DNA of 64,000 bases from a bacterium (GTDB taxonomy: Bacteria; Patescibacteriota; Minisyncoccia; UBA6257; 02-FULL-45-10c): NCBI GenBank assembly GCA_030646915.1, contig JAUSKT010000021.1, positions 19,707 to 83,706 of the forward strand, given 5' to 3'. Below are positions 45,551 to 60,584 of the stretch, in pieces. The notes under the pieces were generated by a model that did no database searches, was not told the DNA's origin, and saw nothing but the letters and a program-made list of their open reading frames with translations. The position numbers were made by a program, and so were the translations under genes. The stretch's first letter is position 1. Each line of letters begins with the position of its first letter.

Positions 45551-46264
45551 ATGTTAAATAAGCAAAAACTATCTTTATCCATATTTTTTCCTTGTTATAA
45601 CGATAAGGGCACCATTGCTTTTATGGTTTTGGAGGCTAAAAAAGTTGCTCAGCAGCTTACGAATGATTTTGAAATTATTGTAATAGATGACGGATCAACA
45701 GATGGAAGCCGGGAATTGCTTTCTGCTCTTAAGGAACAAGTTCCTGAATTAAAATTGGTTTTTCATGAAAAAAATGGCGGCTATGGCGCTGCATTGCGAA
45801 GCGGTTTTAAAGCGGCTACGAAAGAACTGGTTTTTTACACTGACGGAGACGCGCAATATGACGTGAGAGAATTGCCATTATTGCTTTCAAAATTAACTCC
45901 AGATGTTGATATTGTAAATGGCTACAAGATTAAAAGATCCGATCCTTTGCACCGCATTATTGTCGGATATATTTATCAATATGTAATGAAATTGGTTTTT
46001 TGGCTACCGATCAAGGATCCTGATTGTGATTTTCGGCTTATTCGGAGAAAAGTCTTTGATAAAGTAAGCCTACAAAGCTCAACCGGAACTATTACTATAG
46101 AACTTGTTAAAAAGATCCAGCAAGCCGGTTTTCGTTTTAGCGAAGTTGGGGTTCATCATTATTTTCGCATTTACGGCAAATCACAATTTTTTAATTTTAA
46201 GCGCGTATTCAAGACTTTATGGAAATTGATGTTTTTATGGCTTGAGCTTATGATTTTATCATAA
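45551..46264 (+). CDS. GT2 polyprenyl-phosphate glycosyltransferase (Dpm1-like)
   Basis: LSIFFPCYNDKGTI; IVIDDGSTDGS; TDGDAQYD. Confidence 0.85.
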   Translation: MLNKQKLSLSIFFPCYNDKGTIAFMVLEAKKVAQQLTNDFEIIVIDDGSTDGSRELLSALKEQVPELKLVFHEKNGGYGAALRSGFKAATKELVFYTDGDAQYDVRELPLLLSKLTPDVDIVNGYKIKRSDPLHRIIVGYIYQYVMKLVFWLPIKDPDCDFRLIRRKVFDKVSLQSSTGTITIELVKKIQQAGFRFSEVGVHHYFRIYGKSQFFNFKRVFKTLWKLMFLWLELMILS

Positions 46265-46266
46265 TT

Positions 46267-46860
46267 ATGAACATATTACTTAAGGCATTGGCGTCTCGGC
46301 CAGAAATTTCTATTTTTCTCCGTAAAATCGTGGAGATTAATTTTCGAAATCAGAAAAAAATTATAAGACAGAACTTTGAGGCTAATCCAAGCGATCGCGT
46401 GCTAGATATTGGCTGCGGCACGGGCGAGTTTTCTCCCAGCTTTTCAAAAAGCAAATACGTTGGCATTGATATTGATCAAAAAAACATAACCTACGCGAAA
46501 AAACATTATAAAGGCGATTTTCGGGTTGCTGATGGCACGCAATTGCCATTTGAAAATGGAAGCTTTGATAAGATTTTAATAGTTGGAGTATTCCATCATC
46601 TTTCAACTGCGGACTGCAAATTAGTTTTTGGTGAGATGAAGCGAGTATTAAAAAAAGGAGGACAGATTTTGATTATGGAAGATACCAAGTCTGATAGATT
46701 TCTTGTTAAATTTATGCAGTCAGTTGATCAGGGAGCTTATATAAGGAATTTTTCTGAATGGAATTCTTTATTATCCAATAATTTCTATATTCAAAAATCA
46801 GGCTCTTTTAATAACGGCGCCTGCTTCTATTCCTATTTTTTGATCAAGGATTCTTCTTAG
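46267..46860 (+). CDS. class I SAM-dependent methyltransferase
   Basis: VLDIGCGTGEFS motif I. Confidence 0.75.
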   Translation: MNILLKALASRPEISIFLRKIVEINFRNQKKIIRQNFEANPSDRVLDIGCGTGEFSPSFSKSKYVGIDIDQKNITYAKKHYKGDFRVADGTQLPFENGSFDKILIVGVFHHLSTADCKLVFGEMKRVLKKGGQILIMEDTKSDRFLVKFMQSVDQGAYIRNFSEWNSLLSNNFYIQKSGSFNNGACFYSYFLIKDSS

Positions 46861-46906
46861 ATTTGATGAATTCGGCAAATAATGAGAATATTTAAATACT
46901 ATTTTT

Positions 46907-47335
46907 ATGATAAAAAATATAAAAGTAAAAAATTCAGGCATAGTTAAATTGCAATTTTTTGATGATTTTCCTGATGGTAATTTAGTTATTGGCGAGTCTG
47001 AAAGAAATATACCCTTTAAAATTAAAAGATTTTACTTTATTGATTATTTATTTAACCCTAAGGCTAACCGAGGTTTCCATGCTCATAAAAAGACTGAACA
47101 AATAATTTTCTGCATTAACGGCTCTTTTGAACTTAATTTGGATGATGGCCATGATAAGCAAAAAATTGTTATGACCGATCCGCATATTGGCATCCGATTA
47201 GGGCCGAAACTTTGGCATACCATGAAGAAATTTTCTCGGGATTGCGTTATTTTAGTTGTTGCAAATGATTTTTATAAAAAGTCTGATTATATACGGGATT
47301 ATCAAGAATTTTTAAGGTACATTAAAACCAAGTAG
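46907..47335 (+). CDS. dTDP-4-dehydro-6-deoxyglucose 3,4-ketoisomerase (FdtA/QdtA, WxcM-like cupin)
   Basis: RGFHAHKKTEQIIFCINGSFELNLDDG is characteristic of the FdtA cupin. 142 aa. Confidence 0.75.
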   Translation: MIKNIKVKNSGIVKLQFFDDFPDGNLVIGESERNIPFKIKRFYFIDYLFNPKANRGFHAHKKTEQIIFCINGSFELNLDDGHDKQKIVMTDPHIGIRLGPKLWHTMKKFSRDCVILVVANDFYKKSDYIRDYQEFLRYIKTK

Positions 47336-47338
47336 TTT

Positions 47339-48085
47339 ATGGAAAAACCGGTTTATGAAAGCATGTATCTGCACGAAGAGGATTTTTGGTGGTTTTTAGG
47401 AATGAGAAAAATTTCTGAAATTTTTCTGAGGAACTATATAATGCCTTCTGTTGATAATAAAATTTTAGATGCCGGTTGCGGCGGAGGCGGGAAATTTAAG
47501 ATGCTCAGTCAATATGGAAAAGTTTATGGAATTGATATTTCACAAGAGGCATTGAAATATTCAAGATTAAGAAATATTGCTGAAGTATCTTATGGATCGG
47601 TAGAAAAAATACCCATGGGGAATAATGAATTTAATCTGGTAAATTGTAATGATGTTTTATATCATAGTGAAGTCGGCAATGACGTTCTGGCAATGCAGGA
47701 ATTTGCCAGAGTACTCAAACCAGGTGGAATACTTTTTATCCGGGAGGCAGCATATGATTGGCTTCGCGGGCATAATGATAAAGTAGTATGGGTAAAGCAC
47801 CGATATTCAAAAAGAGAAATTATTTCAAAGTTAGAAGCAAATGGTTTTGAAATATTAAGGATCAGTTATGTCAATTGTTTCCTTTTCCCCATTGCTTTAA
47901 TTGTCAGGCTTTTTGAGCGGGCGATTAATCGGAATGACATCCCTGAAGATATTTATAATCCGCCTTTTTTATTGAATTCATTATTTACGCGCATACTTAA
48001 TGCCGAAGCAACTGTATTATCATTTATGAATTTGCCCTTCGGTCTATCCATTGCCTGTGTAGCTAGAAAGAAAAAAACGGTTTAA
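47339..48085 (+). CDS. class I SAM-dependent methyltransferase
   Basis: ILDAGCGGGGKFKML motif I. Confidence 0.75.
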   Translation: MEKPVYESMYLHEEDFWWFLGMRKISEIFLRNYIMPSVDNKILDAGCGGGGKFKMLSQYGKVYGIDISQEALKYSRLRNIAEVSYGSVEKIPMGNNEFNLVNCNDVLYHSEVGNDVLAMQEFARVLKPGGILFIREAAYDWLRGHNDKVVWVKHRYSKREIISKLEANGFEILRISYVNCFLFPIALIVRLFERAINRNDIPEDIYNPPFLLNSLFTRILNAEATVLSFMNLPFGLSIACVARKKKTV

Positions 48086-48107
48086 GATTGAAACAAGTTC
48101 TATTATT

Positions 48108-49193
48108 ATGATTCCATTTGTAGACTTTACCCGAGAATATAAGGAAATAGGGAAGGAAATCGATGTCGCCATTAAGGAAGTTTTGGAACGGGGTTTTTTT
48201 ATTTTGGGTCCGGAATTAGAAAATTTTGAGAAAAAATTTGCAGAATATTGCGACGCCAAATATTGCGTGGGCGTAAATTCTGGAACTGACGCTTTATATC
48301 TGAGTTTGTTATGCGCAGGCATAGGTCCGGGGGATGAGGTGATAGTGCCGGTTAATACTGCCGTGCCTACGGCTATGGCCGTTTCCATGAGTGGAGCTAA
48401 GCCGGTTTTTGCAGATTGCGACGAGAATTTTTTGATTGATATTGATAAAATTCCCCAGCTTTTGACAAAAAAAACCAAAGCAATCATGCCAGTGCATCTT
48501 TATGGCCGGGCTTGCGACATGGGCCGTTTAAAAAAGTTGGCGGTTGCCAATAAATTATTTTTAATTGAAGATTGCGCCCAGTCTGCCGGCGCGGAATGGG
48601 ACGGAAAAAAAGTAGGAACTTTGGGAGATTTCGGATGCTTCAGTTTTTATCCGACAAAAAATCTCGGAGCTTACGGAGACGGAGGAGCGGTAATTATAAA
48701 TAATGAAGATTATTACAAAAAATTGCTCGCCTCCCGTTTTTATGGGCAGGCTGACCGGGTCCATTGTTCTGGATTCGGCATTAACAGCAGGCTGGATGAA
48801 ATCCAAGCCGCTATTTTAAATGCCAAACTTAAGCATCTTGATATTTGGAATAATGCAAGGCAAAAAATTGCCGATTTATATAGGAAATTAATAACCAATC
48901 CAAAAATTATTTTGCCGGCTGCCAGTAACGATAATAATCATATTTATCATCTTTTTGTCATAAGAGCTCCCAAAAGAGATTCGCTTAAAAAAATCCTTGA
49001 AGATAAAGGTATTAAAACAGCAATTCATTATCCCGCACCCCTTTCTCGGCATTCTTTTTTTGCCGGCGCAAAACAAGAATTATTTCCTATGGCGGACCAA
49101 TATGCTGGAGAAATACTTTCGTTGCCTATGCATCCTTTCTTAGAAGAATCTGAAATCAGGGAAATCGCCGACGTTTTAAATAATTATGCATAA
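48108..49193 (+). CDS. DegT-family PLP-dependent aminotransferase (FdtB/QdtB-like, dTDP-3-keto-6-deoxyhexose 3-aminotransferase)
   Basis: FVDFTREYKEIGKEIDVAIKEVLERGFFILGPELENFEKKFAEY. Adjacent to the FdtA-like gene. Confidence 0.8.
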   Translation: MIPFVDFTREYKEIGKEIDVAIKEVLERGFFILGPELENFEKKFAEYCDAKYCVGVNSGTDALYLSLLCAGIGPGDEVIVPVNTAVPTAMAVSMSGAKPVFADCDENFLIDIDKIPQLLTKKTKAIMPVHLYGRACDMGRLKKLAVANKLFLIEDCAQSAGAEWDGKKVGTLGDFGCFSFYPTKNLGAYGDGGAVIINNEDYYKKLLASRFYGQADRVHCSGFGINSRLDEIQAAILNAKLKHLDIWNNARQKIADLYRKLITNPKIILPAASNDNNHIYHLFVIRAPKRDSLKKILEDKGIKTAIHYPAPLSRHSFFAGAKQELFPMADQYAGEILSLPMHPFLEESEIREIADVLNNYA

Positions 49194-50889
49194 AAATACA
49201 GTTGTTAAGCCAGTATTCATAATACTGTTATTAAGCGTTCTTTTTACGGTTATAATCCAACTGGATCTTACTCGGGCTATTTTTTTTGATAATTATTTGA
49301 ACACTAGGCAGATCAGCGGCGTTAATTATTATTTGTCTTTAATTAATGAAAGTTCCAAGGGTAATTGGCAATTGGGAAGCCCTTATATTTTAGAATGGCG
49401 TTATGCGCCTTATTTATATCCCGCTTTAAATATTAACGCGCCGGGGCTGTTTAAAAGAGTTTTGGGCTTGGATATAAAATTATATGCTGCAATTATGGGG
49501 TATTTGTCTGTTTTTTCTATTATGGCCTTGATGTTAATGGCCTTTTCTTACATCTTTAGTTCTAATTATTTTGGTTATTTATTGGCAACAGTCTTTATTT
49601 TCTTTCCTAGGGTAATTATGTGGAATCGAACTTTGAGTCCAGAAATAAATTTTATACCTTTAGCGTTATTTTTAATTTTTTATTTCTCTAATTTTAAATT
49701 TTGGAAACGAGAAATAGGCTTAGCGCTTTCAACTGGAATTTTATTTTATATATATCCATATTATTGGACCTTTGCTTTAGTGCTTTTGGGAATAAGCGAT
49801 TTCTGGAAATTTTGGGATGAGAAGAAGATTATTTGGAATTATTTATATAAATATTTGCTTACTATGGGGCTTGCCTCATGGTATTTAGCCCATCTTTGGC
49901 AAATACAGCACCTTTCTTATTATCGCGAGACCATGGCAAGGATAGGTTTTCTTTATAGCCGTTTGCCGGCAGGCTGGTATACTCAAGCAGTTTTATTATC
50001 ATCTCTGATTATTTATTTCTTTTTAAAGAAATATATCTTTCCAAGATTAGATATAAAGATGATTGCTGATGGCGCCTTAAATAAGATTGTTGCCGGCTTG
50101 GTGGCTAGCTTAGTTGTCCTTAATCAGCAGCTTATTACTAATGTGCAAATGGAATTTAATTCCCATTATTTCCCGGTCATTCTGGTTTTTCTGGTTGCTT
50201 TTTGGGGAAGCTTAACTTTTATCTTAATTAGTAATTTTAATTTTTATAAAAAGAGCATTTTGATTTTTTTATCTTTTCTCCTGGTGACAGGATTAGTCGC
50301 GGTTAGAATATATCAGATATCTGCAAGCTTTGGCCCAGATGGTTATATCGGGGGCAAGGCAGATGGGGTAGTTGAATGGCTTTTAAAAAATCAGATTCAA
50401 GATAAGGTGGTATATGCGCCCGAAGATCTTGGCGATGAGATTAATTTGTGGACCAATAATTATTTAGTTTGGAATGACAACCAGGCATTGCAATTGACAC
50501 CGACCAATGAACTCATTGATCGTTTTACTTATTTTGATATTACCAACCAGAATATCACTAATCATCTTTTTGACCGGCAAACGGCAATTTTCGGACAAAC
50601 CTTTATTTCTTCAATGCAAAAAGACAATGTGATAAATAATATTAAGGCCAAGCTTTCAGGCAAGAATTTTGTGCCAGCCACTTTAGCGGAATATACAAAG
50701 TATGATTTTGAACCAATGTATAAAAAAAGGATTCAGCCAGACAGCGCTGAATTTAATAAATACTTGGAAAAATTCCATGTTAGTTATTTGGTATACAGGC
50801 AAAAAGATAGGAATAGCATTTACAAATCCGTACCGGGAAAAATTGTTTTTGAAAGCGAGTCTTATTTGATTAAAAAACTGGCGCCATAA
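49186..50889 (+). CDS. large polytopic membrane protein, putative GT-C-fold glycosyltransferase (1 of 3 in tandem)
   Basis: About 12 transmembrane helices. ISGVNYY motif in the first loop. 567 aa. Confidence 0.55.
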   Translation: MHKNTVVKPVFIILLLSVLFTVIIQLDLTRAIFFDNYLNTRQISGVNYYLSLINESSKGNWQLGSPYILEWRYAPYLYPALNINAPGLFKRVLGLDIKLYAAIMGYLSVFSIMALMLMAFSYIFSSNYFGYLLATVFIFFPRVIMWNRTLSPEINFIPLALFLIFYFSNFKFWKREIGLALSTGILFYIYPYYWTFALVLLGISDFWKFWDEKKIIWNYLYKYLLTMGLASWYLAHLWQIQHLSYYRETMARIGFLYSRLPAGWYTQAVLLSSLIIYFFLKKYIFPRLDIKMIADGALNKIVAGLVASLVVLNQQLITNVQMEFNSHYFPVILVFLVAFWGSLTFILISNFNFYKKSILIFLSFLLVTGLVAVRIYQISASFGPDGYIGGKADGVVEWLLKNQIQDKVVYAPEDLGDEINLWTNNYLVWNDNQALQLTPTNELIDRFTYFDITNQNITNHLFDRQTAIFGQTFISSMQKDNVINNIKAKLSGKNFVPATLAEYTKYDFEPMYKKRIQPDSAEFNKYLEKFHVSYLVYRQKDRNSIYKSVPGKIVFESESYLIKKLAP

Positions 50890-50947
50890 CAATAATAGCC
50901 TTTCGAGGTGTTCTAATATAAAATAGGATAATTAGCAAAATAAACTT

Positions 50948-52687
50948 ATGCTCAGCTTTATTTATTCTCGGGAAAAATACACTCTAGTCTTATTAAGTGT
51001 TGCGATTGGAATTTTAATTTCCGCTCCGGCAATTTATTTCCGTTATTTTGACGGCGGATATAAAGGCATAGATTTTTTTGGTTCGGACGCGGAAAATTAT
51101 TATTTAGGGCAAATTCAAGAAATTTATGATGGCCATTGGTTTTCGGGGAACATTTATGTAGAGGAGGGTAAAAATGACCCTTACGTGCAGCAGCCATTGC
51201 CAGCGATGATAATCGCTTTCTTGGGGCAATCTTTAGGAATATCTGCCAGAGACGTTAATGTCCTGACAAAATTTTTATTTCCAGCGCTTTTAACCGTCAT
51301 AGTTTATCTGTTTTTTTCTGCTTTAACTGGCCGTAAAGATTTTGCAATTTTGATGACGATTTTTGTGATGCTGATTCAGGCAAGCTGGATATTTTTTGAT
51401 CCTGGGTCTTGGCTGCCATTTTTATTGAAGGGAGAGTTCAGGGGCACTGATTATAATTTTATCAGCTATGCACGGCCTATTAATCCGCAGATCAGCTCCA
51501 TTTTCTTTTTTGGATATTTATTATGCGCTTGGAAATTTTTCTTCAGCCGTCTTTCTGAAAAAATGGAAAAGATATATGGGATCGCCAGCGCTGTTATTTT
51601 AGGATTGTCTTTTTATATATATTTTTTCACTTTTTCATTTTTATCAGTATTTAACGCGGTTTTATTTTTTTGGTTCTTATATTCCAGGGATTGGATCCGC
51701 CTGAAAAAGACTTTTCTTGTTTCAATCGGCGCCCTGGCCATTGCAGTGCCTTATTTTGCCAATGTTCTGGAAATGATGAAATCGCCGAATTACAGCCAGC
51801 TGGCCCATCGGACGAACATCCTCGAAACTCACAGATTTATTTTCAGCAAAGTGTGGTGGGGGGTGACCGCGCTTTTTCTGCTGTTATATCGCGGATCCCG
51901 CAAGGTAAAAATTTTTACTTTAGCCTTTCTAGCCACGGCATTTTTAGTCACCAATCAGCAGTTAATCACCGGGAAAACTTTACCGCTTCCAGCCCATTAT
52001 CATTGGTATTACATTGCTCCAATTGGGGGCGCGATTCTTGTTTACCTTTTTTTTATGTATTTTGAAAAGTTAGCCGGTCTTTTTGTATCGCGTTTGGCAA
52101 TGTTATTTTTTATTTTAATATCTTTTTATGCTGGTTTTTTGTATCAAAAAATTTCTTATACAAAACAGTGGGACTATTTTATTTATCAGCAAAGGTATGC
52201 CCCGATATTGTCTTGGTTAGATCTGGATATTAAGAAAGAAAGTGCTATTTTTACTAACGAAGATTTATCAGGGCTTATTCCTGCCTATACCCGCCATAAT
52301 GTTTATTATTCAGGTCTTTTAACTGATTCCCTGATAAGCGAAGAAAGGATTAGGCATTCTCTTTATGTTTATTTTTTTCTTAATGGCGTCACTGAAGATT
52401 CGGCTAGGGATTTTTTTTACGATAATCGGGATTGGGTGGGCAGCCAAATTTTCAGCGACTATTATCGGCAAAAAAGTGGCTGCCATGGATGTTTCCCGGA
52501 TTCTATTTTAGACGGATTTATCCAGGAATATCGGAAATTCCTTAAAAAGGGTTTTTTGGAACAGATTAAAAAATATCAGGTTGATTACGCCGTCTGGGAT
52601 AAAGAGAAAAATCCGGAATGGCGATTGGACCGTTTTTTTAATGAAAAAGTATATGAGAAAGATAATATTATCGTTTATAAATTTTAA
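50948..52687 (+). CDS. large polytopic membrane protein, putative GT-C-fold glycosyltransferase (2 of 3)
   Basis: FGSDAENYYLGQ loop motif after TM1. 579 aa. Confidence 0.55.
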   Translation: MLSFIYSREKYTLVLLSVAIGILISAPAIYFRYFDGGYKGIDFFGSDAENYYLGQIQEIYDGHWFSGNIYVEEGKNDPYVQQPLPAMIIAFLGQSLGISARDVNVLTKFLFPALLTVIVYLFFSALTGRKDFAILMTIFVMLIQASWIFFDPGSWLPFLLKGEFRGTDYNFISYARPINPQISSIFFFGYLLCAWKFFFSRLSEKMEKIYGIASAVILGLSFYIYFFTFSFLSVFNAVLFFWFLYSRDWIRLKKTFLVSIGALAIAVPYFANVLEMMKSPNYSQLAHRTNILETHRFIFSKVWWGVTALFLLLYRGSRKVKIFTLAFLATAFLVTNQQLITGKTLPLPAHYHWYYIAPIGGAILVYLFFMYFEKLAGLFVSRLAMLFFILISFYAGFLYQKISYTKQWDYFIYQQRYAPILSWLDLDIKKESAIFTNEDLSGLIPAYTRHNVYYSGLLTDSLISEERIRHSLYVYFFLNGVTEDSARDFFYDNRDWVGSQIFSDYYRQKSGCHGCFPDSILDGFIQEYRKFLKKGFLEQIKKYQVDYAVWDKEKNPEWRLDRFFNEKVYEKDNIIVYKF

Positions 52688-54304
52688 ATGTCATTCTCTT
52701 TTTTAAAAGAAAATAAAGTTTTTTTGGCAATTTTATTTTTAATTTTTTCTACTTATCTTTGGCTGGCCTGGCAGCCGATAGAAAAATTACTTTCCGGATT
52801 TTTAGTAGATGATGCCTTTTATTATTTTAAGTCGGCGGCTAATTTAGCAAATAGATTAGGCCCGACTTTTGATGGGGAACATCTGACTAATGGCTACCAT
52901 CCTTTGTGGATGGGGATTAATGCAGTTATTTATTATTTATTCCCCAATAATAAAATATTGCCCATTCATTTAATTCTGACTTTGGCGGTTTTATTTTTTG
53001 CTGGCGGCACATTGCTTTGTTGGAAGATTATTTCCCAGCTTGTCCAAGACAGGACTATGCAGATTCTTTTACTGCTTGCTTACGCCTTGAATCCTTGGAA
53101 TATCAGTAATATTTTGAATGGATTAGAAACTTCACTGGCGCTTTTTCTTCTTATATTGCTTTTCTGGCTTTTTTTAAGGATTTTGAATGGTAAAGATAGA
53201 ATCACGGATTTTTTGTTGTTGGGCATGGTGGGAGGCCTGACTGTTTTGGCAAGATTAGATTATGGATTATTTTTAGCGGCTATTCTTATTTTTTTCCTCT
53301 TTAAGAAAAAGTATTCTTGGCCGTCTTTACTTGCTTTTTCTTTGACCGCTTTTCTTTTGGCGGTGCCCTGGTTTTTATATAATTATTTTTATTTTGGTTC
53401 GTTAATTCCGGCGAGCGGCTTAGCTTATACATTAATTAATCACCGTCTATGGTTTTATAAGGATCGGAATTTAACTCAAATTCTGCTTTGGTCTTTGTAT
53501 AATTTTATTGGCACTATTACTTTTACTCTAAAGACCATCGGTCTGCCAAATTTTTATTCCGCTTCCAATCTATGGAAATCTTTTTGGTCTCTTGGAGTTA
53601 TTTTTTTTCCGATTATTGCAGGCATAATTTATTTTTATACAGTAAAGAGAGATCAATTTAAAGAATATTTAAGAAAGCTTATGGCTTCTAATGAATGGAT
53701 AGTCTTTATCATTTTTTTTATTGCTTACTTTGGCTTGATTGTTGTCCATGGGGCAATTCGATGGTCTAGTCGAGAATGGTATTTTGCGAGCTTTCCTTTT
53801 TTGGTTGTTATTTTTCTTGCCTTGCTTTTAAGTAGATCCTCTATGGAAATTTATTGTAAAAGAATATTACTGGCACTTGCCTTATTATTGGGCATTTCTT
53901 TTGGCATATCTTGGGCGGGCATTTTTACCCAATATAACGGCCAATTGGAAGCGTATAACGCTGCTTTGTGGGCTCGGGATAATCTTCCAGCTAATGTGCG
54001 TATTGCCGCTTTTAATAGCGGGGTTTTAGGCTATTTTAGCGAACGCTTTATCATGAATTCCGACGGGCTTATAAATAACAGCGCTTTTGAGGCGTTGAAA
54101 GAAAATCGTTTATGGGAATTATTTAAAAAGGAGCGCATTGATTATCTGATGGATTATGAAATCACCTTAACTTACCGCTTTAAATCTTTTTTGGGGATAG
54201 AAAATCCAATGGCAGAAGTTAACAGAATAAATATTCCTATTGTTTTAGCCCCTTCGTCGGAGAGTTATGCAGGTTCGCATATCGGTATTTTCCAGCTGAA
54301 GTAA
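52688..54304 (+). CDS. large polytopic membrane protein, putative GT-C-fold glycosyltransferase (3 of 3)
   Basis: FLVDDAFYYFKS loop motif after TM1. 538 aa. Confidence 0.55.
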   Translation: MSFSFLKENKVFLAILFLIFSTYLWLAWQPIEKLLSGFLVDDAFYYFKSAANLANRLGPTFDGEHLTNGYHPLWMGINAVIYYLFPNNKILPIHLILTLAVLFFAGGTLLCWKIISQLVQDRTMQILLLLAYALNPWNISNILNGLETSLALFLLILLFWLFLRILNGKDRITDFLLLGMVGGLTVLARLDYGLFLAAILIFFLFKKKYSWPSLLAFSLTAFLLAVPWFLYNYFYFGSLIPASGLAYTLINHRLWFYKDRNLTQILLWSLYNFIGTITFTLKTIGLPNFYSASNLWKSFWSLGVIFFPIIAGIIYFYTVKRDQFKEYLRKLMASNEWIVFIIFFIAYFGLIVVHGAIRWSSREWYFASFPFLVVIFLALLLSRSSMEIYCKRILLALALLLGISFGISWAGIFTQYNGQLEAYNAALWARDNLPANVRIAAFNSGVLGYFSERFIMNSDGLINNSAFEALKENRLWELFKKERIDYLMDYEITLTYRFKSFLGIENPMAEVNRINIPIVLAPSSESYAGSHIGIFQLK

Positions 54305-54307
54305 AGA

Positions 54308-54790
54308 TTGATTATGAACCCTATTCTTTTTGAAGAATTAAATCTAAATTTAGAAGGCCGGATAATTTTTTTGGATATTGATGGAACTTTAATTGCTGAC
54401 GGCAGCCAATTGGATTTTGAGCCAAAAATTTTAAATAAAATTAATTTTTTACGTCAGAAAAATCAGATCTTTCTTTGTACGAATTCCAGTGATAGAATCA
54501 GGAGTAATAAAATTGAAAGGGCGCTGAGTCTTCCAATTGCGACTTATAATCATAAAAAACCAAGCTCAAAGATAATAAAGGAACTCGGCATCGGCAAAGA
54601 AAATAAAAATTTCTTAGTGATTGGCGATAAAGTTTTAATTGACGGGCTTTTTGCTTTAAATATCGGCGCTGAATTTATAAAGGTTAAGAGGAAAATTTCT
54701 GGCCAAGAATCTTTAGTGATAAAGTTAATTAACTTGGCAGATGATTTAATATGCCAGGTAGTGAAACTTCGGTGGTTTCTCAAAAATTAA
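54308..54790 (+). CDS. HAD-superfamily phosphatase
   Basis: FLDIDGTLIAD motif I (DxDGT). LVIGDKVLIDG motif IV. Confidence 0.6.
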   Translation: MIMNPILFEELNLNLEGRIIFLDIDGTLIADGSQLDFEPKILNKINFLRQKNQIFLCTNSSDRIRSNKIERALSLPIATYNHKKPSSKIIKELGIGKENKNFLVIGDKVLIDGLFALNIGAEFIKVKRKISGQESLVIKLINLADDLICQVVKLRWFLKN

Positions 54791-54886
54791 TCAAGGCTAT
54801 AACTATAGACTTAGTCATTACAGAAATAATAATTAATTATAATTCAGAGCTTCGAAACTAATAATGCCGAAGTTCTACTACCTGGT

Positions 54887-55942
54887 ATGGCATATCGCGA
54901 AAATTCTAAAACTTATTTAATTACCGGCGGTTCGGGGTTTTTGGGAATTAATTTAGTCCGCTATTTATTGGCAAGGGGACAGCGGGTGCGTTCTTTAGAC
55001 GCCATTCCATTTGATTATCCGGAAAAAGATAAAATTGAGTGGCTAGCTGGAGATGTTCGGGATAAAGCTGCAGTAGATAAAGCCATGAAGGGAATTGATA
55101 TTGTTGTTCATTGCGCAGCGGCTCTTCCGCTTTATTCTAAAGAAGATATTTTAAGCACTGAAGTTGATGGAACTAGAAATGTTTTGGAAAGCGCTAAAAA
55201 TAATAATGTAGATCGATTCATTCATATTTCTTCGACAGCGGTTTATGGAATTCCGGACCATCATCCGATTTATGAAAATGATAAGCTGGTAGGCGTAGGG
55301 CCTTATGGAGAGGCAAAAATAAAAGCGGAAGAGCTTTGTTTGGCAGCTAGGAAAAATGGAATGTGTGTTTCGATTATCCGGCCGAAATCTTTTGTCGGCC
55401 CGGAGCGGCTGGGAGTTTTTGCGCTTTTTTATGATTGGGCGAAAAATGGTCATAATTTTCCAATGATCGGCAACGGCAAAAACCGTTATCAGCTTTTGGA
55501 TGTGGAAGATTTATGTGAAGCGATTTATTTGTGCAGTACTAAGCCAAAAGAGTCGGTGAATGATACTTTTAATGTGGGCGCCAAGGAATTTACCACCATG
55601 AAAGAAGATTATCAGGCAGTTTTAGATGAGGCGGGATTTGGCAAGAAAATTATCGGTTTTCCCGCAGCCCCGATGATCTGGACTCTCAGGTTTTTGGAAT
55701 TATTAAAATTATCGCCTTTATATAAATGGGTTTATGAAACTGCCGCTAAAGATTCTTTTGTATCCATAGAAAAAGCAGAGAAAAAATTAGATTGGCATCC
55801 GAAATATTCCAATAAACAAGCTTTGCTCCGGAATTATAAATGGTATTTGAAAAATCTTTATAAATTTGAAGGCAAGAGCGGCGTTTCCCACCGGGTTCCT
55901 TGGAAACAGGGTATACTGAAATTAGCTAAATTTTTCTTTTAG
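54887..55942 (+). CDS. NAD-dependent epimerase/dehydratase family SDR (UDP-hexose 4-epimerase-like)
   Basis: TYLITGGSGFLGINLVRYL; YGEAKIKAEE (YxxxK). Confidence 0.8.
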   Translation: MAYRENSKTYLITGGSGFLGINLVRYLLARGQRVRSLDAIPFDYPEKDKIEWLAGDVRDKAAVDKAMKGIDIVVHCAAALPLYSKEDILSTEVDGTRNVLESAKNNNVDRFIHISSTAVYGIPDHHPIYENDKLVGVGPYGEAKIKAEELCLAARKNGMCVSIIRPKSFVGPERLGVFALFYDWAKNGHNFPMIGNGKNRYQLLDVEDLCEAIYLCSTKPKESVNDTFNVGAKEFTTMKEDYQAVLDEAGFGKKIIGFPAAPMIWTLRFLELLKLSPLYKWVYETAAKDSFVSIEKAEKKLDWHPKYSNKQALLRNYKWYLKNLYKFEGKSGVSHRVPWKQGILKLAKFFF

Positions 55943-55944
55943 TT

Positions 55945-56808
55945 ATGAATATTTTTAAAAATTTATTAATTTCAATGCGGCCGAAGCAGTGGACGAAAAA
56001 CCTGTTTCTTTTTACTGCTTTGTTTTTTGTCAAAGCTTTTACGGATTTAGATAAGGTGCTTTTGGCAACTGAAGCTTTTGCTTTATTTTGTTTGGCATCC
56101 AGCGCAGTTTATTTATTGAACGATATTGCAGATTTGCCGAAAGATCGTGAACATCCGTTTAAAAGACTTCGACCTTTAGCCGCTGGCAAGATTAATGCAG
56201 CGCTGGTTGCAGTGATGGCAGTATTATTGGGGGCATCAGCAATAATTGGCGGATTTTATTTAAATTTTTGGTTTGGTCTTACTGTTGTCGGATATATTTT
56301 ATTGAATATTGCTTATTCATTGCTTTTAAAAAATCTGATTATCCTCGATGTTTTTACAATTGCCATTGGTTTTGTAATCCGGGTTGTTGCCGGAGCAGTT
56401 GCGATTAATGTACCTTTTTCTTCCTGGCTGATTTTATGCACTTTTTTCCTTACCTTGTTTCTTGCAATCAATAAAAGGAAAGGCGAATTGTTATTTAATT
56501 CTGCCAGTGGCAACAGGTCAGTTTTGCGGAATTATTCTGCGGGATTTTTAGACCAGATGAGTTTGATTGCGTTATCGGCAACTATTATCAGCTATACTTT
56601 TTATACTTTTAGTTCGGAACACAGCAAGCTTTTGATGCTGACAGTTCCAATCGTGCTTTACGGGCTTTTTAAATATCTTTTTATCGTAAATGAAAGCCAA
56701 GGCGCTGATGACGGCCCGAGTGATATTTTTTTGAGGGAATTCAGTTTACAGCTTACAGTTCTAGTTTGGATTGCGGCAGTGGCGTTAGTTTTACTTTACG
56801 GGAAGTAA
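55945..56808 (+). CDS. UbiA-family prenyltransferase resembling decaprenyl-phosphate 5-phosphoribosyltransferase (DPPR synthase)
   Basis: NDIADLPKD (NDxxDxxxD); RPLAAGKI; about 8 transmembrane helices; 287 aa. Confidence 0.75.
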   Translation: MNIFKNLLISMRPKQWTKNLFLFTALFFVKAFTDLDKVLLATEAFALFCLASSAVYLLNDIADLPKDREHPFKRLRPLAAGKINAALVAVMAVLLGASAIIGGFYLNFWFGLTVVGYILLNIAYSLLLKNLIILDVFTIAIGFVIRVVAGAVAINVPFSSWLILCTFFLTLFLAINKRKGELLFNSASGNRSVLRNYSAGFLDQMSLIALSATIISYTFYTFSSEHSKLLMLTVPIVLYGLFKYLFIVNESQGADDGPSDIFLREFSLQLTVLVWIAAVALVLLYGK

Positions 56809-58296
56809 CCCAACTTTTTTTGCTATCAATCTGGCTAAGTCGTCAAATCCTTTTTCGTGTTTAATTGCCTCAAGACTTTCCGCTCCTTCTCTGATTTTAG
56901 TGAGATTGGCATTTACAGAGTCTTCCAAAATTGCCCCGATAAAATTTATTAATTCTCGATCGTCATGGCGGAAGTTTTCTAACTGCTCTTTTACTAAATA
57001 AGGCAGTTTTTCAATATTGTCAGATCTTTTTACCATAGAAAGTTTATTAAACCAAACATCGGCGAAAGTAATGGTTGGTTTTTTGAGGAATATTGCTTCC
57101 CAAATTGCGCCTCCGCTAATAGAAAATACCAGTTTGGCATTTTTTATTAAATTTAGCCCTGCAATATTCGGATTGATCAACTGGATATTGGGTATTTTTA
57201 ATAATTCCTTATAATATTTCCTTGGCCTGTAGCCGACCATGGAAGGATGCTCTTTTACCAGAAGCTTAAAATTAATTGGAAGAGATTTGGCAATTTGCTT
57301 GATCAGATTTATTTGGTCGTTCCAAAAAGGCGCGTAAAGAAATAAGGCAATTTCCGGTTCATAGTGAAGTCCATAGAAGGCGTAATCTCCTTGAGTATCG
57401 GGCGCGGAATAGAGATCTGAATATCCGCGGAGCATTCTTACTTTTCTTTTAATTTTATCCCAAATTGAATACCAGAAGATTTCATCTGTGTAGTCCTTTT
57501 CTTTTTTTTGCAGATTTTTCCAAAAGAAATTAGATAACCAGGTCGCCAATTTAACAAACCGATGCGGCAAAAGGAACCGAAATTGTTTGAGGGTTGTAAG
57601 CGCGAGGTTGTCCGGCGAATAGGCGTCATAATACGACTGTGGATTATTTCTAAATTCTTCTAAAAATTGTTTTGCTTCTTTTTCTTTAGGATTAGGAATT
57701 TTACCTGATTGTATTTCATCAAATATTTTATTTGCCCAGCTGAAAGTCCTATAATCTTCGGTCAGAATAATCCCATTTTTAATCCGGCTGTAATTAAGGC
57801 TAAGGATTTTAACCCCCATTTTTTTACAAATATGATAAAGCAGCAGGGATGCCGTTGATCCAACGACTGAAGTAAATAAGAAATCAGGTTTTTCTTCTTT
57901 AAGAAATTTAATAATTTCTTTGGAAGTCACCTGAAGAACCCGGAGCATGTCTTCATAAGATAGTAATGGCTGATCGTGGGGATATTCTCTGATGAGCTGG
58001 CTATGCATTATTACTCGGTCTATGTATAAGTAATGCCAGAGGTTAGGAAGGCCATATTCTTTTTCCAGCCATTTTAAGTATTCAAAATCTAACTTTTCAT
58101 TCTTATATTTTTTATAAATATCTTCGTCTAAAAGAATTTTGGTTATTGGCAAGTCTTTTTGAGAACTCAAAAATTGATACGCGGTCCTTGGAGTAGTATA
58201 GATGCAAAATTCATCTACGCCATATTTCATAAGTTGTTTGGCAATATGGCAGCCTATTGGCGCAAATCTACGTTGTAAGAAGAAGCATCCTTTCAT
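56791..58296 (-). CDS. capsule polysaccharide biosynthesis protein family (KpsS/KpsC-like Capsule_synth)
   Basis: Rossmann-like layout. WNDQINLIKQIAKSLPINFKLLVKEHP pattern typical of this family. Assignment tentative. Confidence 0.45.
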   Translation of the reverse strand: MKGCFFLQRRFAPIGCHIAKQLMKYGVDEFCIYTTPRTAYQFLSSQKDLPITKILLDEDIYKKYKNEKLDFEYLKWLEKEYGLPNLWHYLYIDRVIMHSQLIREYPHDQPLLSYEDMLRVLQVTSKEIIKFLKEEKPDFLFTSVVGSTASLLLYHICKKMGVKILSLNYSRIKNGIILTEDYRTFSWANKIFDEIQSGKIPNPKEKEAKQFLEEFRNNPQSYYDAYSPDNLALTTLKQFRFLLPHRFVKLATWLSNFFWKNLQKKEKDYTDEIFWYSIWDKIKRKVRMLRGYSDLYSAPDTQGDYAFYGLHYEPEIALFLYAPFWNDQINLIKQIAKSLPINFKLLVKEHPSMVGYRPRKYYKELLKIPNIQLINPNIAGLNLIKNAKLVFSISGGAIWEAIFLKKPTITFADVWFNKLSMVKRSDNIEKLPYLVKEQLENFRHDDRELINFIGAILEDSVNANLTKIREGAESLEAIKHEKGFDDLARLIAKKVGLLPVK

Positions 58297-59441: not shown

Positions 59442-60584
59442 ATGATACCTTACGGACATCAATCTATAGATGACTCTGATATAAAAGCGGTTATAAAGGT
59501 TTTAAAATCAGATTGGCTTAGCCAGGGCCCTAAGATTGCTGAATTTGAAGAGGCTTTAGCTAAATATTGCGGCGCCAAATACGCTGTGATTTTTTCCAGC
59601 GGTACTGCGGCGCTTCATGCAGCTTATTTTTCAGCAGGATTGAAATCGGGAGATGAATTCATTACTACTCCATTAACTTTTGCCGCAACTGGCAATGCCG
59701 GTCTTTATTTAGGCGCAAAGCCGGTTTTTGCCGATATTGGAGAAGATTTGAATTTGGATCCTGAAGAAACGGTTAAAAAAATAAACTCCAAGACCAAACT
59801 TATTTCTGTGGTGGATTTTGCTGGGTTGCCGGCTAAATTGGATGAATTGAAAAAAATCGCCCGTAAACATAATTTAGTTTTAGTGGAAGACGGATGCCAT
59901 GCGCTGGGAGCAAGCTATAAGGGTAAAAAAATCGGTTCCGTCGCTGATATGACGGCATTTAGTTTTCATCCGGTAAAATCCATTACTACAGGAGAAGGCG
60001 GCGCGGTGCTTACTGACAATAAAGATTACTATGAAAAAATGAAAGTTTTCCGCCATCATGGAATCGTGCGCGACCCATCCAAATTCAAAAATAAATCAGA
60101 TGGCGATTGGTATCATGAAATGCAGGAGCTTGGATTCAATTATCGGATTACTGATATCCAGGCGGCTCTGGGAATTTCCCAGCTGAAAAGACTGGATAAA
60201 TTTATAAAGGCAAGAAAGAAAATTGCATCAGCTTATAACCAAGCTTTCAAGAAATTTTCTGATAAAATAAAACTTCCGTCAGACAGCAAAGATTTTTCTT
60301 CATCTTGGCATATTTATATTTTAAGATTAAAAGGAAAATTAGAAAAAAAACGCGCAGAGGTTTTCAAAAAATTAAGAGAAGCAGGAATTGGAGCGCAGGT
60401 CCATTATTTGCCGGTTTATCTGCATCCGTATTATCAGTCTTTGGGCTATAAAAAGGGTTTATGCCCGAAAGCGGAAGAATATTATGAAACAGCCATTTCT
60501 TTACCGATTTTCCCAGATCTAAAATTAAAAGACCAGCAATTTGTAATTAAAAAACTCAATGAAATCCTTAAAAGTTATTTGTGA
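59442..60584 (+). CDS. pseC: UDP-4-amino-4,6-dideoxy-N-acetyl-beta-L-altrosamine transaminase (PseC, DegT family)
   Basis: FSFHPVKSITTGEGGAVLTDN; KMKVFRHHG; GAQVHYLPVY. Confidence 0.88.
   Translation: MIPYGHQSIDDSDIKAVIKVLKSDWLSQGPKIAEFEEALAKYCGAKYAVIFSSGTAALHAAYFSAGLKSGDEFITTPLTFAATGNAGLYLGAKPVFADIGEDLNLDPEETVKKINSKTKLISVVDFAGLPAKLDELKKIARKHNLVLVEDGCHALGASYKGKKIGSVADMTAFSFHPVKSITTGEGGAVLTDNKDYYEKMKVFRHHGIVRDPSKFKNKSDGDWYHEMQELGFNYRITDIQAALGISQLKRLDKFIKARKKIASAYNQAFKKFSDKIKLPSDSKDFSSSWHIYILRLKGKLEKKRAEVFKKLREAGIGAQVHYLPVYLHPYYQSLGYKKGLCPKAEEYYETAISLPIFPDLKLKDQQFVIKKLNEILKSYL

What the first reader, a model, noticed from the sequence alone, without database searches (positions are those of the whole stretch)
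49186..56808. A DPPR-synthase-like UbiA prenyltransferase, HAD phosphatase and SDR sit beside three tandem GT-C membrane proteins sharing a D[AD][AEN]xYY loop motif
The UbiA-family protein (NDIADLPKD, RPLAAG) resembles the mycobacterial decaprenyl-phosphate 5-phosphoribosyltransferase. In that pathway a phosphatase and an SDR (DprE2-type) follow. Here a HAD phosphatase and an SDR are adjacent, and three paralogous GT-C-like proteins (ISGVNYY, DAENYY, DDAFYY after TM1) could be the lipid-pentose-using transferases. This would be a polyprenyl-phospho-ribose or arabinose-type donor system outside Actinobacteria.
Basis: inference. Interest (0 to 1): 0.65.

Follow-up and report, generated by a model that had tools for sequence, protein, structure and literature searches.

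The report
Lipid-linked pentose sugar pathway, CPR bacterium
An uncultured ultra-small (Patescibacteria/CPR) bacterium encodes enzymes for making a lipid-carried five-carbon sugar next to membrane enzymes that could attach it to the cell surface; this kind of pathway was described in 2024, so the find is a new variant, not a new kind.

Summary
The UbiA-family protein (55945-56808) is a decaprenyl/polyprenyl-phosphate 5-phosphoribosyltransferase homolog, not a quinone prenyltransferase. It passes the NCBIfam equivalog cut-off, aligns over its full length with Mtb Rv3806c (PDB 8j8j, E 1e-42) and keeps the NDxxDxxxD residues. NCBI already names it so.

A small HAD-IIIA-like phosphatase and an extended SDR travel with it in several CPR lineages. 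The SDR is GalE/3β-HSD/HpnA-like, not DprE2-type. SDR orthologs also pair with this UbiA in Elusimicrobiota, Fibrobacteres, WOR-1, haloarchaea and actinomycetes.

M2 and M3 are GT-C glycosyltransferases by predicted fold (pLDDT 92-93). M1 is an M2 paralog that has lost the near-invariant acidic loop residue. M3 is only a remote homolog of M1/M2.

The module matches the "three-component" pentofuranose glycosylation systems of Kelly et al. (PNAS 2024). It differs in four ways: a CPR host, a separate non-orthologous phosphatase, different GT-C families, and no flippase or DprE1 gene in the 64 kb.

M1/M2 orthologs consistently follow a small ArnC-like GT2 plus a methyltransferase. Probably only M3, perhaps M2, uses the pentose donor.

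Its novelty outside Actinobacteria and the shared role of the trio are overstated. Interest is modest.

The parts
55945..56808 (+). Polyprenyl-phosphate 5-phosphoribosyltransferase (PPPRS/DPPRS, UbiA superfamily), 287 aa, about 7-9 TM helices. Catalytic-loop residues N59, D60, D63, D67; also R76-P77 and K177-R178-x-x-E181.
   Evidence: NCBIfam NF008977 246.2 bits (cut-off 234) and NF008978 205 bits. Pfam UbiA 2.2e-20. PDB 8j8j Mtb DPPRS E 1.4e-42, residues 2-286 aligned to 12-302. The listed residues are invariant among 25 homologs. NCBI names the identical protein 'decaprenyl-phosphate phosphoribosyltransferase'.
54887..55942 (+). Extended SDR (GalE/3β-HSD/HpnA-like), 351 aa. TGGSGFLG at 13-20, D38 at the end of β2 (suggests NAD preference), S115-S116-T117, Y140-x-x-x-K144. 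Proposed epimerase acting on polyprenyl-P-ribofuranose.
   Evidence: Pfam Epimerase 7.7e-44 and 3Beta_HSD 2.4e-26. NCBIfam HpnA 2.5e-32, below cut-off. Orthologs of 71-81% identity lie beside UbiA in Giovannonibacteria, Saccharibacteria, Elusimicrobiota and L091; 52-65% in WOR-1 and Fibrobacteraceae. Orthologs of 34-52% identity lie beside or near a DPPRS-like UbiA in haloarchaea, Streptomyces, Nonomuraea and NGR234. The function is inferred.
54308..54790 (+). Small cap-less HAD phosphatase (HAD-IIIA/YqeG-like), 160 aa. Motif I D23-x-D25-G-T27, motif II T58, motif IV G106-D107-x-x-x-x-D112. Proposed polyprenyl-P-ribose-5-phosphate phosphatase.
   Evidence: NCBIfam HAD-SF-IIIA 9.1e-10 and YqeG 7.2e-9; Pfam Hydrolase_6 and PGP_phosphatase; all at or below cut-offs. 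Orthologs lie adjacent to UbiA in L001 (41%), L005 (38%) and L091 (54%). In other taxa the slot next to UbiA is filled by a different phosphatase type: PAP2, HAD-IB, PHP or a fused HAD.
52688..54304 (+). M3: GT-C glycosyltransferase (PMT_2/GT39/ArnT-like), 538 aa. Family-invariant D41, D42, Y45 in the loop after TM1; also D62, H71, R189, D191. Most likely user of the pentose donor.
   Evidence: Pfam PMT_2 1.3e-4, below the gathering score. Many homologs carry PF13231, and NCBI names the protein 'glycosyltransferase family 39 protein'. AF2 pLDDT 92.7. Foldseek probability 1.0 to OST/STT3; ArnT 5f15 TM 0.57; AftB 9dlh TM 0.56, rmsd 5.9. It abuts the HAD-SDR-UbiA block both here and, in a different gene order, in L091.
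50948..52687 (+). M2: GT-C-fold membrane protein of a family found mainly in Patescibacteria and matching no Pfam or NCBIfam model, 579 aa. Near-invariant E49 and Y52 in the loop after TM1.
   Evidence: No Pfam or NCBIfam hit. 58 homologs, named only as hypothetical proteins from Patescibacteria-type MAGs. AF2 pLDDT 92.3. Foldseek probability 1.0 to STT3/PglB; AftA 8if8 TM 0.54; also ArnT and DPY19. Orthologs regularly follow a small GT2 plus methyltransferase.
49186..50889 (+). M1: paralog of M2, 567 aa, in which the conserved acidic loop residues are replaced (S-G-V-N-Y-Y). Possibly a non-catalytic or re-purposed GT-C.
   Evidence: BLASTP against M2: 23% identity over 477 aa, E 2e-7. 254 cluster representatives at E<=1e-3. 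The closest orthologs P0299, P0301 and P0303 also lack the D/E, whereas P0302, P0304, P0306 and P0309 keep [ND]DE.
45551..49193 (+). Upstream same-strand genes: ArnC/PpgS-like small GT2 (45551-46264), methyltransferase (46267-46860), FdtA-like 3,4-ketoisomerase (46907-47335), methyltransferase (47339-48085), DegT aminotransferase (48108-49193). Probably a separate polyprenyl-P-aminosugar donor module feeding M1/M2.
   Evidence: Pfam. NCBIfam best hit for the GT2 is undecaprenyl-phosphate 4-deoxy-4-formamido-L-arabinose transferase, 5.5e-22, below cut-off. The same gene set accompanies M2-like genes in L001.

Best explanation
The last three genes of a + strand operon (HAD 54308-54790, SDR 54887-55942, UbiA 55945-56808) form a donor-synthesis module for a polyprenyl-phosphate-linked pentofuranose.

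Proposed steps:
1. The UbiA-family enzyme transfers ribose-5-phosphate from PRPP to a polyprenyl phosphate on the cytoplasmic face. Homology is shown; activity is inferred.
2. The small HAD phosphatase removes the 5-phosphate to give polyprenyl-P-ribofuranose. This is inferred from synteny and from the fact that some phosphatase always accompanies this UbiA clade.
3. The NAD-dependent extended SDR then epimerises the lipid-linked ribose through a transient keto intermediate. This needs no DprE1-type flavoenzyme. The product is most likely xylofuranose (C3), as shown for Citrobacter ORF13; arabinofuranose (C2) is not excluded. This step is inferred.
4. The donor is flipped by a transporter not encoded in this window. 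A Giovannonibacteria relative has a GtrA-family gene at this position.
5. A GT-C glycosyltransferase uses the donor outside the membrane to decorate an unknown surface glycan or protein of this Patescibacteria (CPR) bacterium.

M3 is the most likely transferase and M2 a possible one. M1/M2 belong to a separate, Patescibacteria-restricted GT-C family that more probably uses a polyprenyl-P-aminosugar made by the upstream ArnC-like GT2/FdtA/DegT/methyltransferase genes. M1 has lost its conserved acidic residue.

The whole stretch is one part of a ~50 kb glycosylation island with seven GT-C genes and at least five small GT2 genes.
For: UbiA is DPPRS-like.

Synteny of UbiA-HAD-SDR: Giovannonibacteria L001 (with GtrA), Saccharibacteria L005 and L091 (all six orthologs).

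UbiA-SDR pair without the HAD: Elusimicrobiota, WOR-1 and Fibrobacteraceae; haloarchaea, Streptomyces, Nonomuraea and NGR234.

Non-orthologous phosphatases in the same slot: PAP2 in L086, HAD-IB in L085, PHP in L013 and L092, fused HAD in L096.

GT-C folds of M2 and M3.

M3 adjacency to the UbiA block is kept despite gene rearrangement. In UbiA-less loci, M3 orthologs are instead flanked by another donor module, GT2 plus epimerase.

M2 orthologs follow GT2 plus methyltransferase. The window GT2 is ArnC-like. M1 has lost the acidic residue.

No DprE1-like, DprE2-like, GtrA, SMR, MATE or LPG_synthase_TM gene is in the window.

Experimental precedent for every step comes from Kelly et al. 2024 (PMC11127046).
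Against: No biochemistry exists for any of these proteins.

I could not obtain the Citrobacter ORF13 or ORF12 sequences, so orthology of this SDR to the proven Ribf-to-Xylf epimerase, and of M1-M3 to GT136, is untested.

No flippase was found in 64 kb. The rest of the 90.9 kb contig and of the genome could not be read.

Orthologs of M1, M2 and M3 all occur in loci without a UbiA gene within 10 kb. None of the three is therefore strictly tied to the pentose module, and the assignment of M3 rests on adjacency in only two loci.

The HAD matches are below curated cut-offs.

Many 40-48% identical UbiA homologs in other phyla sit beside DUF362 and housekeeping genes rather than glycan genes. The clade may therefore not have a single function.
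Confidence: 0.55

Rival explanations
1. One reading: all three tandem GT-C proteins use the lipid-linked pentose, as Emb/Aft enzymes do, and together build an oligo- or poly-pentofuranose (arabinan-like) structure. The SDR plays the DprE2 role and a DprE1-like oxidase is encoded elsewhere.
For: The three GT-C genes lie immediately upstream of HAD-SDR-UbiA on one strand with tiny gaps. M2 resembles AftA and M3 resembles AftB about as well as any other GT-C. L001 and L005 carry two or three M2-like genes near UbiA and no M3. Kelly et al. note 'elaborate' systems with several GT-Cs.
Against: M1 lacks the near-invariant acidic residue. M1/M2 orthologs always follow their own small GT2 and/or methyltransferase, and occur without UbiA within 10 kb. 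The SDR is an extended SDR, unlike DprE2. No FAD oxidase is in the window. The window holds at least five small GT2 genes plus one UbiA against seven GT-Cs, which suggests roughly one donor per GT-C.
Confidence: 0.15
2. The HAD-SDR-UbiA genes are only a neighbour of the GT-C genes within a crowded glycan island. Their product is not a glycosyl donor for M1-M3. It might be a membrane glycolipid end-product, or be used by one of the four upstream PMT_2 GT-Cs or by a GT-C elsewhere.
For: Orthologs of all three GT-Cs occur without a nearby UbiA. In Streptomyces the SDR-UbiA pair sits with GT2s, an EEP phosphatase and an LPG_synthase_TM protein, with no annotated GT-C. Many UbiA homologs have non-glycan neighbours such as DUF362. 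Four other GT-Cs are in the window.
Against: A GT-C gene lies next to the UbiA-SDR module in the window, L091, WOR-1 L057 (TMEM260/PMT_2-like) and Haloterrigena L092 (two GT-Cs). Beside the UbiA of Lactococcus L085 there is an unannotated 462-aa protein whose fold I did not test. In every characterised case, the only known use of polyprenyl-P-pentofuranose is as a GT-C donor (PMC11127046).
Confidence: 0.15
3. The SDR is not an epimerase of the lipid-linked sugar. It could be an ordinary nucleotide-sugar enzyme of the island, or a reductase that fixes a keto intermediate made by another enzyme. In that case the donor delivered is plain ribofuranose.
For: The window contains at least seven other extended SDRs for nucleotide sugars. 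The best family matches are all below cut-off and heterogeneous. Citrobacter O1 works without any epimerase.
Against: The SDR is the most conserved protein of the module (71-81% identity across phyla, against 55-69% for UbiA). It stays beside UbiA from CPR bacteria to haloarchaea and actinomycetes, while the other neighbours change. It clusters with lipid-substrate SDRs (HpnA, OleD, 3β-HSD, SdmB) rather than with a specific NDP-sugar equivalog.
Confidence: 0.1

Closest known systems
Three-component extracytoplasmic pentofuranose glycosylation systems (Citrobacter youngae O1/O2 ORF15-ORF14-ORF12, with ORF13 epimerase); Kelly et al., PNAS 2024, PMC11127046
   Same: A UbiA-family polyprenyl-P phosphoribosyltransferase homologous to Rv3806c. 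A HAD-superfamily phosphatase for the 5-phosphate. An optional GalE-like SDR with TGxxGxxG and YxxxK as sole epimerase. An adjacent GT-C fold transferase, within a glycan gene cluster.
   Different: The phosphatase is a separate 160-aa HAD-IIIA/YqeG-like protein, not the fused PRP domain; the paper reports a separate PRP in one phage. No MATE, SMR or GtrA flippase gene is in the 64 kb. The GT-Cs are PMT_2-like (M3) or belong to a family with no Pfam model (M1/M2). The acceptor cannot be an LPS O antigen in the usual sense, because the host is a Patescibacteria bacterium; to my knowledge these are not known to make LPS. Orthology to ORF12 (GT136) and ORF13 could not be tested.
Mycobacterial decaprenyl-phospho-arabinose pathway (Rv3806c UbiA, Rv3807c, DprE1/DprE2, Emb/Aft GT-Cs)
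   Same: The first enzyme is a clear homolog (E 1e-42 over the full length, catalytic NDxxDxxxD conserved). The logic of a lipid-linked pentofuranose donor plus GT-C transferases is the same.
   Different: The phosphatase is HAD, not PAP2. There is no DprE1 flavoenzyme and no classical-SDR DprE2; a single extended SDR stands in their place. The GT-Cs are far smaller than Emb/AftD and lack their carbohydrate-binding domains.
Pseudomonas aeruginosa PA7 pilin D-arabinofuranosylation (PPPRS, DprE1/E2 homologs, TfpW GT-C), as summarised in PMC11127046
   Same: A PPPRS-based lipid-pentose donor is used by a GT-C outside Actinobacteria to modify a surface protein. A protein acceptor (pilin or S-layer) is a plausible target in a CPR bacterium.
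   Different: That system uses DprE1/E2 homologs. No pilin gene or TfpW-like gene is linked here.
ArnC/ArnT-type and GtrB/GtrA/Gtr-type systems (GT2 polyprenyl-P-sugar synthase + flippase + GT-C)
   Same: This is the likely logic of the upstream GT2-MT-FdtA-MT-DegT-M1-M2 genes. M3's best TM-score is to ArnT bound to undecaprenyl phosphate.
   Different: The donor sugar is probably a methylated 3-amino-3,6-dideoxyhexose, not Ara4N or glucose. No flippase gene is present. The M1/M2 family matches no existing Pfam or NCBIfam model.

Membership tests
DPPRS/PPPRS clade of the UbiA superfamily (Rv3806c, C. youngae ORF15-C) | Sequence membership: scores above the curated equivalog cut-off and aligns full-length to Rv3806c, rather than to UbiA, MenA or CyoE | tested here: met
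   NF008977 246.2 bits against cut-off 234. Other prenyltransferase models score 39 bits or less. PDB 8j8j E 1.4e-42 over residues 2-286, and no other PDB family at E<=0.01.
DPPRS/PPPRS clade of the UbiA superfamily | Catalytic loop II N-D-x-x-D-x-x-x-D, and loop IV R...E, shown to be required in ORF15 and Rv3806c | tested here: met
   N59, D60, D63, D67 and R178, E181 are present and invariant in 25 homologs. The residue roles come from PMC11127046.
DPPRS/PPPRS clade of the UbiA superfamily | Enzyme activity: PRPP + polyprenyl-P gives polyprenyl-P-ribose-5-P | not testable with these tools
   Needs a membrane assay.
Three-component pentofuranose glycosylation system (Kelly 2024) | Phosphoribose 5-phosphatase associated with the PPPRS | tested here: met
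   A HAD with intact DxDxT and GDxxxxD motifs is adjacent and syntenic in L001, L005 and L091. It belongs to a different HAD subfamily from the fused PRP: no match to the HAD part of NF006088, and no BLASTP similarity to the Lactococcus HAD-IB.
Three-component pentofuranose glycosylation system (Kelly 2024) | Dedicated small flippase (MATE/SMR/GtrA-type) encoded with the system | tested here: not met
   No multi-TM ORF of 60-260 aa lies outside the larger genes, except one unassigned 251-aa protein at 6759-7514. tblastn with GtrA (L001, L085), SMR (NGR234) and LPG_synthase_TM queries found nothing in the window. A GtrA-family gene is present in the Giovannonibacteria relative. The rest of the genome could not be searched.
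Three-component pentofuranose glycosylation system (Kelly 2024) | GT-C fold glycosyltransferase adjacent to the donor genes | tested here: met
   Foldseek on the M2 and M3 models gives probability 1.0 to STT3, PglB, ArnT, AftA and AftB. M3 lies 3 nt upstream of the HAD gene.
CAZy GT136 (C. youngae ORF12) | Sequence similarity to ORF12, its D31/E34/Y35/H106/R349 residues, and a C-terminal CBM | tested here: inconclusive
The SI figures are images, and accessions CP099034, BK026208 and CP032687 are absent from the collections. The putative GT-C next to the Burkholderia multivorans HAD-UbiA fusion shows no similarity to M1-M3 or to the M3 profile, but its reading frame and family are unverified. 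The M2 and M3 models end in small α/β domains, not an Ig-like β-rich CBM.
ORF13-type SDR epimerase (Ribf to Xylf) | GalE-like extended SDR with TGxxGxxG and YxxxK, encoded with the PPPRS | tested here: met
   T13-G20, and Y140/K144. Epimerase family 7.7e-44. Adjacent to UbiA here and in at least 10 other loci.
ORF13-type SDR epimerase (Ribf to Xylf) | Orthology to ORF13 and C3-epimerase activity on polyprenyl-P-Ribf | not tested
   The ORF13 sequence is not held. Activity needs an assay.
DprE1/DprE2 two-enzyme epimerase | FAD-dependent oxidase (DprE1) plus a classical ~250-aa SDR (DprE2) beside the PPPRS | tested here: not met
   Pfam scans of all window ORFs of 150 aa or more found no FAD_binding_4/ALO-type oxidase and no adh_short-type SDR. 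The SDR present is an extended type.
GT-C superfamily (M1) | Conserved acidic residue in the first extracytoplasmic loop | tested here: not met
   M1 and three orthologous clusters have G/V or G/S/R/H where the M1/M2 family has D-E. More distant orthologs keep [ND]DE.

The most novel reading that the evidence does not exclude
The tightly conserved UbiA-SDR pair defines an uncharacterised, widely spread route. Here the SDR is 71-81% identical across CPR lineages and Elusimicrobiota, and 34-52% identical in haloarchaea, Streptomyces, Nonomuraea and rhizobia. In this route a single lipid-substrate SDR would replace DprE1/DprE2 and make a polyprenyl-P-pentofuranose other than ribose: Araf, Xylf or a so-far-unseen epimer. 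In ultra-small CPR episymbionts this donor, together with a Patescibacteria-restricted GT-C family that includes a degenerate paralog (M1), would decorate the surface structures (pili or S-layer) that mediate host attachment.
Probability: 0.2. Interest if true: 0.6.

Novelty: new variant of a known kind. Interest (0 to 1): 0.35.

Why it matters
Almost nothing is known about the cell-surface glycans of Patescibacteria/CPR bacteria, yet their lifestyle depends on attaching to host cells. This locus predicts that some of them make a lipid-linked pentofuranose and attach it outside the membrane, and that they devote ~50 kb and seven GT-C enzymes to surface glycosylation.

It also gives three testable leads:
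- an SDR that may epimerise a lipid-linked ribose on its own;
- a GT-C family with no Pfam model;
- a naturally degenerate GT-C paralog.

The core pathway is already established in other bacteria, and the key gene is already named by automated annotation. The gain is in scope and detail, not a new principle.

Tried and rejected
- Leptospira origin. I suspected it from the 35% GC and a weak LA_3751/3752 NCBIfam hit. Rejected: the identical proteins come from a 'MAG: bacterium', and the relatives are Harrisonbacteria, Paceibacterota and Giovannonibacteria.
- Obtaining Citrobacter ORF12/ORF13, or the candidates listed by Kelly et al. The SI sequences are images. CP099034, BK026208 and CP032687 are not in the collections. 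The Burkholderia multivorans locus has no annotation, and only the HAD-UbiA fusion and a 4-TM ORF could be recognised. Its putative GT-C did not match M3.
- Reading the rest of the 90.9 kb source contig for a flippase or DprE1. The look-ups returned only short Logan contigs or nothing.
- The 116-aa gene between SDR and UbiA in L091 as a flippase. Rejected: it is soluble and has no homolog in the window.
- A UDP-galactopyranose-mutase reading of the flavoprotein beside M3 homologs in L090 and L097. Rejected: it is HpnE/amine-oxidase-like.
- Using the 80 genome loci to define conserved neighbours. Most non-CPR UbiA homologs sit beside DUF362 and housekeeping genes, so they say nothing about this module.
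- A phage search found one unannotated fragment only.

Full report
**What is in the sequence.** The gaps between them are 58, 0, 3, 96 and 2 nt. The upstream DegT gene overlaps M1 by 8 nt, and a convergent gene overlaps the UbiA stop codon, so UbiA probably ends a long operon.

**Source organism.** The window is not from an actinobacterium or a Gram-negative. Identical proteins are on record from a 90.9 kb contig of a 'MAG: bacterium'. The nearest named relatives are Candidatus Harrisonbacteria, Paceibacterota, Giovannonibacteria and 'Patescibacteria group'. The host is therefore a CPR/Patescibacteria bacterium with about 35-37% GC.

**The UbiA protein.** It scores 246.2 bits on NCBIfam NF008977, 'decaprenyl-phosphate phosphoribosyltransferase' (cut-off 234). 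Generic UbiA, heme-O-synthase and other prenyltransferase models score 39 bits or less. In the PDB it matches only the two Mtb Rv3806c entries (8j8j, E 1.4e-42, full length). N59, D60, D63, D67 and R178/E181 are invariant in 25 homologs. They correspond to the residues that Kelly et al. tested by mutation in Citrobacter ORF15. NCBI's pipeline already gives it this name.

**The HAD and the SDR.** The HAD keeps DxDGT (23-27), T58 and GDxxxxD (106-112). Its best matches are HAD-IIIA/YqeG-type models, at or below their cut-offs.

The SDR is an extended SDR (Pfam Epimerase 7.7e-44). It has TGGSGFLG, Y140-x-x-x-K144 and an Asp at the end of β2. Its best NCBIfam matches, all below cut-off, are HpnA, LegB, RmlB, OleD and SdmB. 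It is not DprE2-like.

Synteny ties both genes to UbiA:
- Giovannonibacteria: UbiA-HAD-SDR-GtrA (L001).
- A Saccharibacteria MAG: UbiA-HAD-SDR (L005).
- L091: HAD-SDR-x-UbiA, with orthologs of all six window genes.

The SDR is the best-conserved member, at 71-81% identity against 55-69% for UbiA. It also stays beside UbiA in other lineages:
- Elusimicrobiota, WOR-1 and Fibrobacteraceae.
- Haloarchaeal megaplasmids, at 50-52% identity.
- Streptomyces and Nonomuraea, at 42% identity.
- pNGR234a, at 34% identity and within 7 kb.

The phosphatase slot next to UbiA is filled by a different enzyme family in different taxa:
- a divergent PAP2 in Marivivens;
- a HAD-IB in a Lactococcus plasmid, which also has GtrA;
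- a PHP domain in Haloterrigena and Elusimicrobiota;
- a fused HAD in Burkholderia.

This repeated replacement argues that a phosphatase step is needed after the UbiA reaction.

**The membrane trio.** M2 has no Pfam or NCBIfam match. Its 58 homologs carry only 'hypothetical protein' names and come from Patescibacteria-type MAGs. An AlphaFold model built on 36 sequences has pLDDT 92.3. Foldseek places it in the GT-C fold with probability 1.0: STT3, PglB, AftA (TM 0.54), ArnT and DPY19.

M3 hits PMT_2 weakly, and many of its homologs carry PF13231. NCBI calls it GT39. Its model (pLDDT 92.7) is closest by TM-score to ArnT with undecaprenyl phosphate (0.57) and AftB (0.56, rmsd 5.9).

So the trio are glycosyltransferase-fold proteins, not transporters. 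They are not three equal paralogs, however:
- M1 and M2 are paralogs (E 2e-7).
- M3 is related only at profile level (hhalign probability 97%, E 1e-10, N-terminal 200 columns, with the loop motifs aligned).
- In the M1/M2 family the near-invariant loop residues are E49 and Y52 in M2 numbering.
- M1 and its three closest ortholog clusters have lost the acidic residues, while more distant orthologs keep [ND]DE. M1 may be non-catalytic.

**Wider context.** The window from about 12.7 to 63.4 kb is one large glycosylation island. It contains:
- four further PMT_2 GT-Cs (13565, 19877, 27952, 34530);
- at least five small GT2s (21529, 31055, 32917 as a GT2-methyltransferase fusion, 37225, 45551);
- eight GT4-type enzymes (Glycos_transf_1);
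- several aminotransferases and many nucleotide-sugar dehydratases and epimerases;
- methyltransferases and a radical-SAM enzyme.

The scans found no FAD-dependent DprE1-like oxidase, no classical SDR, no Wzx/Wzy and no GtrA/SMR/MATE/LPG_synthase_TM protein.

**Which GT-C uses the pentose?** M2 orthologs always follow a small GT2 plus a methyltransferase (L087, L088, L091, L097, L005). In L087 and L088 there is no UbiA within reach. The window's own upstream GT2 is ArnC/PpgS-like and is followed by FdtA, DegT and two methyltransferases. M1/M2 therefore more probably use a GT2-made polyprenyl-P-aminosugar.

M3 abuts the UbiA block in both loci that have both genes, and the gene order differs between them (window: M3-HAD-SDR-UbiA; L091: HAD-SDR-x-UbiA-M3). 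In three UbiA-less loci, M3 orthologs are flanked by a different putative donor module: GT2 plus a 332-342 aa epimerase, with an RGP-family protein in L089. I read this as a swap of donor modules around one GT-C family. That favours M3 as the pentosyl transferase here, but the evidence is thin.

**Comparison with what is known.** Kelly, Duong, Nothof, Lowary and Whitfield (PNAS 2024, PMC11127046) established 'three-component systems'. These comprise a PPPRS of the UbiA family fused to a HAD phosphoribose phosphatase, a small flippase, and a GT-C (founding GT136) that adds α-Ribf to the O antigen in the periplasm. In serotype O2 a single GalE-like SDR (ORF13) converts the donor to Xylf, whereas Araf-containing glycans come with DprE1/E2 homologs. 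[quoted passage not shown]

The present module works like these systems. It differs in these respects:
- the host is a CPR bacterium;
- the phosphatase is separate and of another HAD subfamily;
- the GT-C families are different;
- no flippase gene is in the 64 kb, so one defining component was tested and not found.

I found no paper linking Patescibacteria/CPR with this pathway.

The best-supported mechanism runs PRPP + polyprenyl-P → lipid-P-Ribf-5-P (UbiA) → lipid-P-Ribf (HAD) → an epimer, probably Xylf (SDR) → flipping by an unidentified transporter → transfer by M3, perhaps M2, to an unknown surface acceptor. Only the homologies, folds and synteny are shown; every catalytic step is inferred.

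This is a new variant of a known kind and of modest interest. The more interesting open point is the deeply conserved UbiA-SDR pair, which may be a one-enzyme alternative to DprE1/E2.

Noticed in passing
window 12763-63411: A ~50 kb glycosylation island in a small-genome CPR bacterium. It holds seven GT-C genes (13565-15271, 19877-21529, 27952-29283, 34530-35975, plus M1-M3), at least five small GT2s, eight GT4-type enzymes, four DegT aminotransferases, a sugar C-methyltransferase (43644-44936) and many SDRs. No Wzx, Wzy or ABC exporter was recognised.
   Followed up: partly
window 24470-26299: A B12-binding radical-SAM enzyme (609 aa) is embedded among the glycosyltransferase genes. It may be a radical methylase or modifier of a sugar.
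   Followed up: no
window 60559-61077: A 172-aa protein matches PTAC (phosphate propanoyltransferase, PduL-like; 2.9e-31). It lies between a DegT aminotransferase and a GFO/IDH/MocA oxidoreductase in a PseB-like sugar gene set, an unusual partner for sugar genes.
   Followed up: no
window 56791-58296 (- strand): A 501-aa protein with weak Capsule_synth / BFO_1060-family GT matches converges on the UbiA gene and overlaps it by 18 nt. A ~500-aa Capsule_synth protein recurs in the related CPR loci L087, L088, L089, L090, L091 and L097.
   Followed up: partly
window 6759-7514: A 251-aa protein with about 8-9 predicted TM segments has no Pfam or NCBIfam match. It is the only unassigned small polytopic membrane protein in the window, lies 47 kb from the UbiA module, and is an untested flippase candidate.
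   Followed up: partly
L006-L084 (e.g. L033:10889-12103): Most 40-48% identical DPPRS-like UbiA homologs in Chloroflexota, Acidobacteriota, Clostridia, Bacteroidota and other phyla are not in glycan clusters. In 25 of 81 loci they sit next to a DUF362 protein and housekeeping genes (TlyA-like, mevalonate-kinase-like, RecO-like). This suggests a different, uncharacterised role for that large clade.
   Followed up: partly
L089:10001-14433: In a Harrisonbacteria MAG an M3 homolog is followed by a small GT2, an epimerase and a protein hitting PF03214 (RGP, the plant UDP-arabinopyranose mutase family). This hints at a UDP-L-arabinofuranose-derived lipid donor for the same GT-C family.
   Followed up: no
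L090:11622-14679 and L097:12623-15622: M3 homologs in UbiA-less CPR loci are flanked by a conserved trio: an epimerase of 332-338 aa, a GT2 of 237 aa, and a 433-aa HpnE/amine-oxidase-like flavoprotein. A flavoprotein oxidase paired with an SDR next to a lipid-sugar synthase recalls the DprE1/DprE2 logic. I did not test this.
   Followed up: no
L092:4162-11080 and L093:6956-13943: In Haloterrigena and Streptomyces the SDR-UbiA pair is accompanied by a protein with a lysylphosphatidylglycerol-synthase transmembrane domain (MprF-flippase-like). This may be an alternative flippase for the lipid-linked pentose. The haloarchaeal locus also has a PHP phosphatase and two GT-Cs.
   Followed up: partly
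window 9021-12680: A 1219-aa protein with a peptidoglycan-binding domain lies just upstream of a TPR protein and the first GT-C of the island. It is a possible surface-protein acceptor for glycosylation.
   Followed up: no
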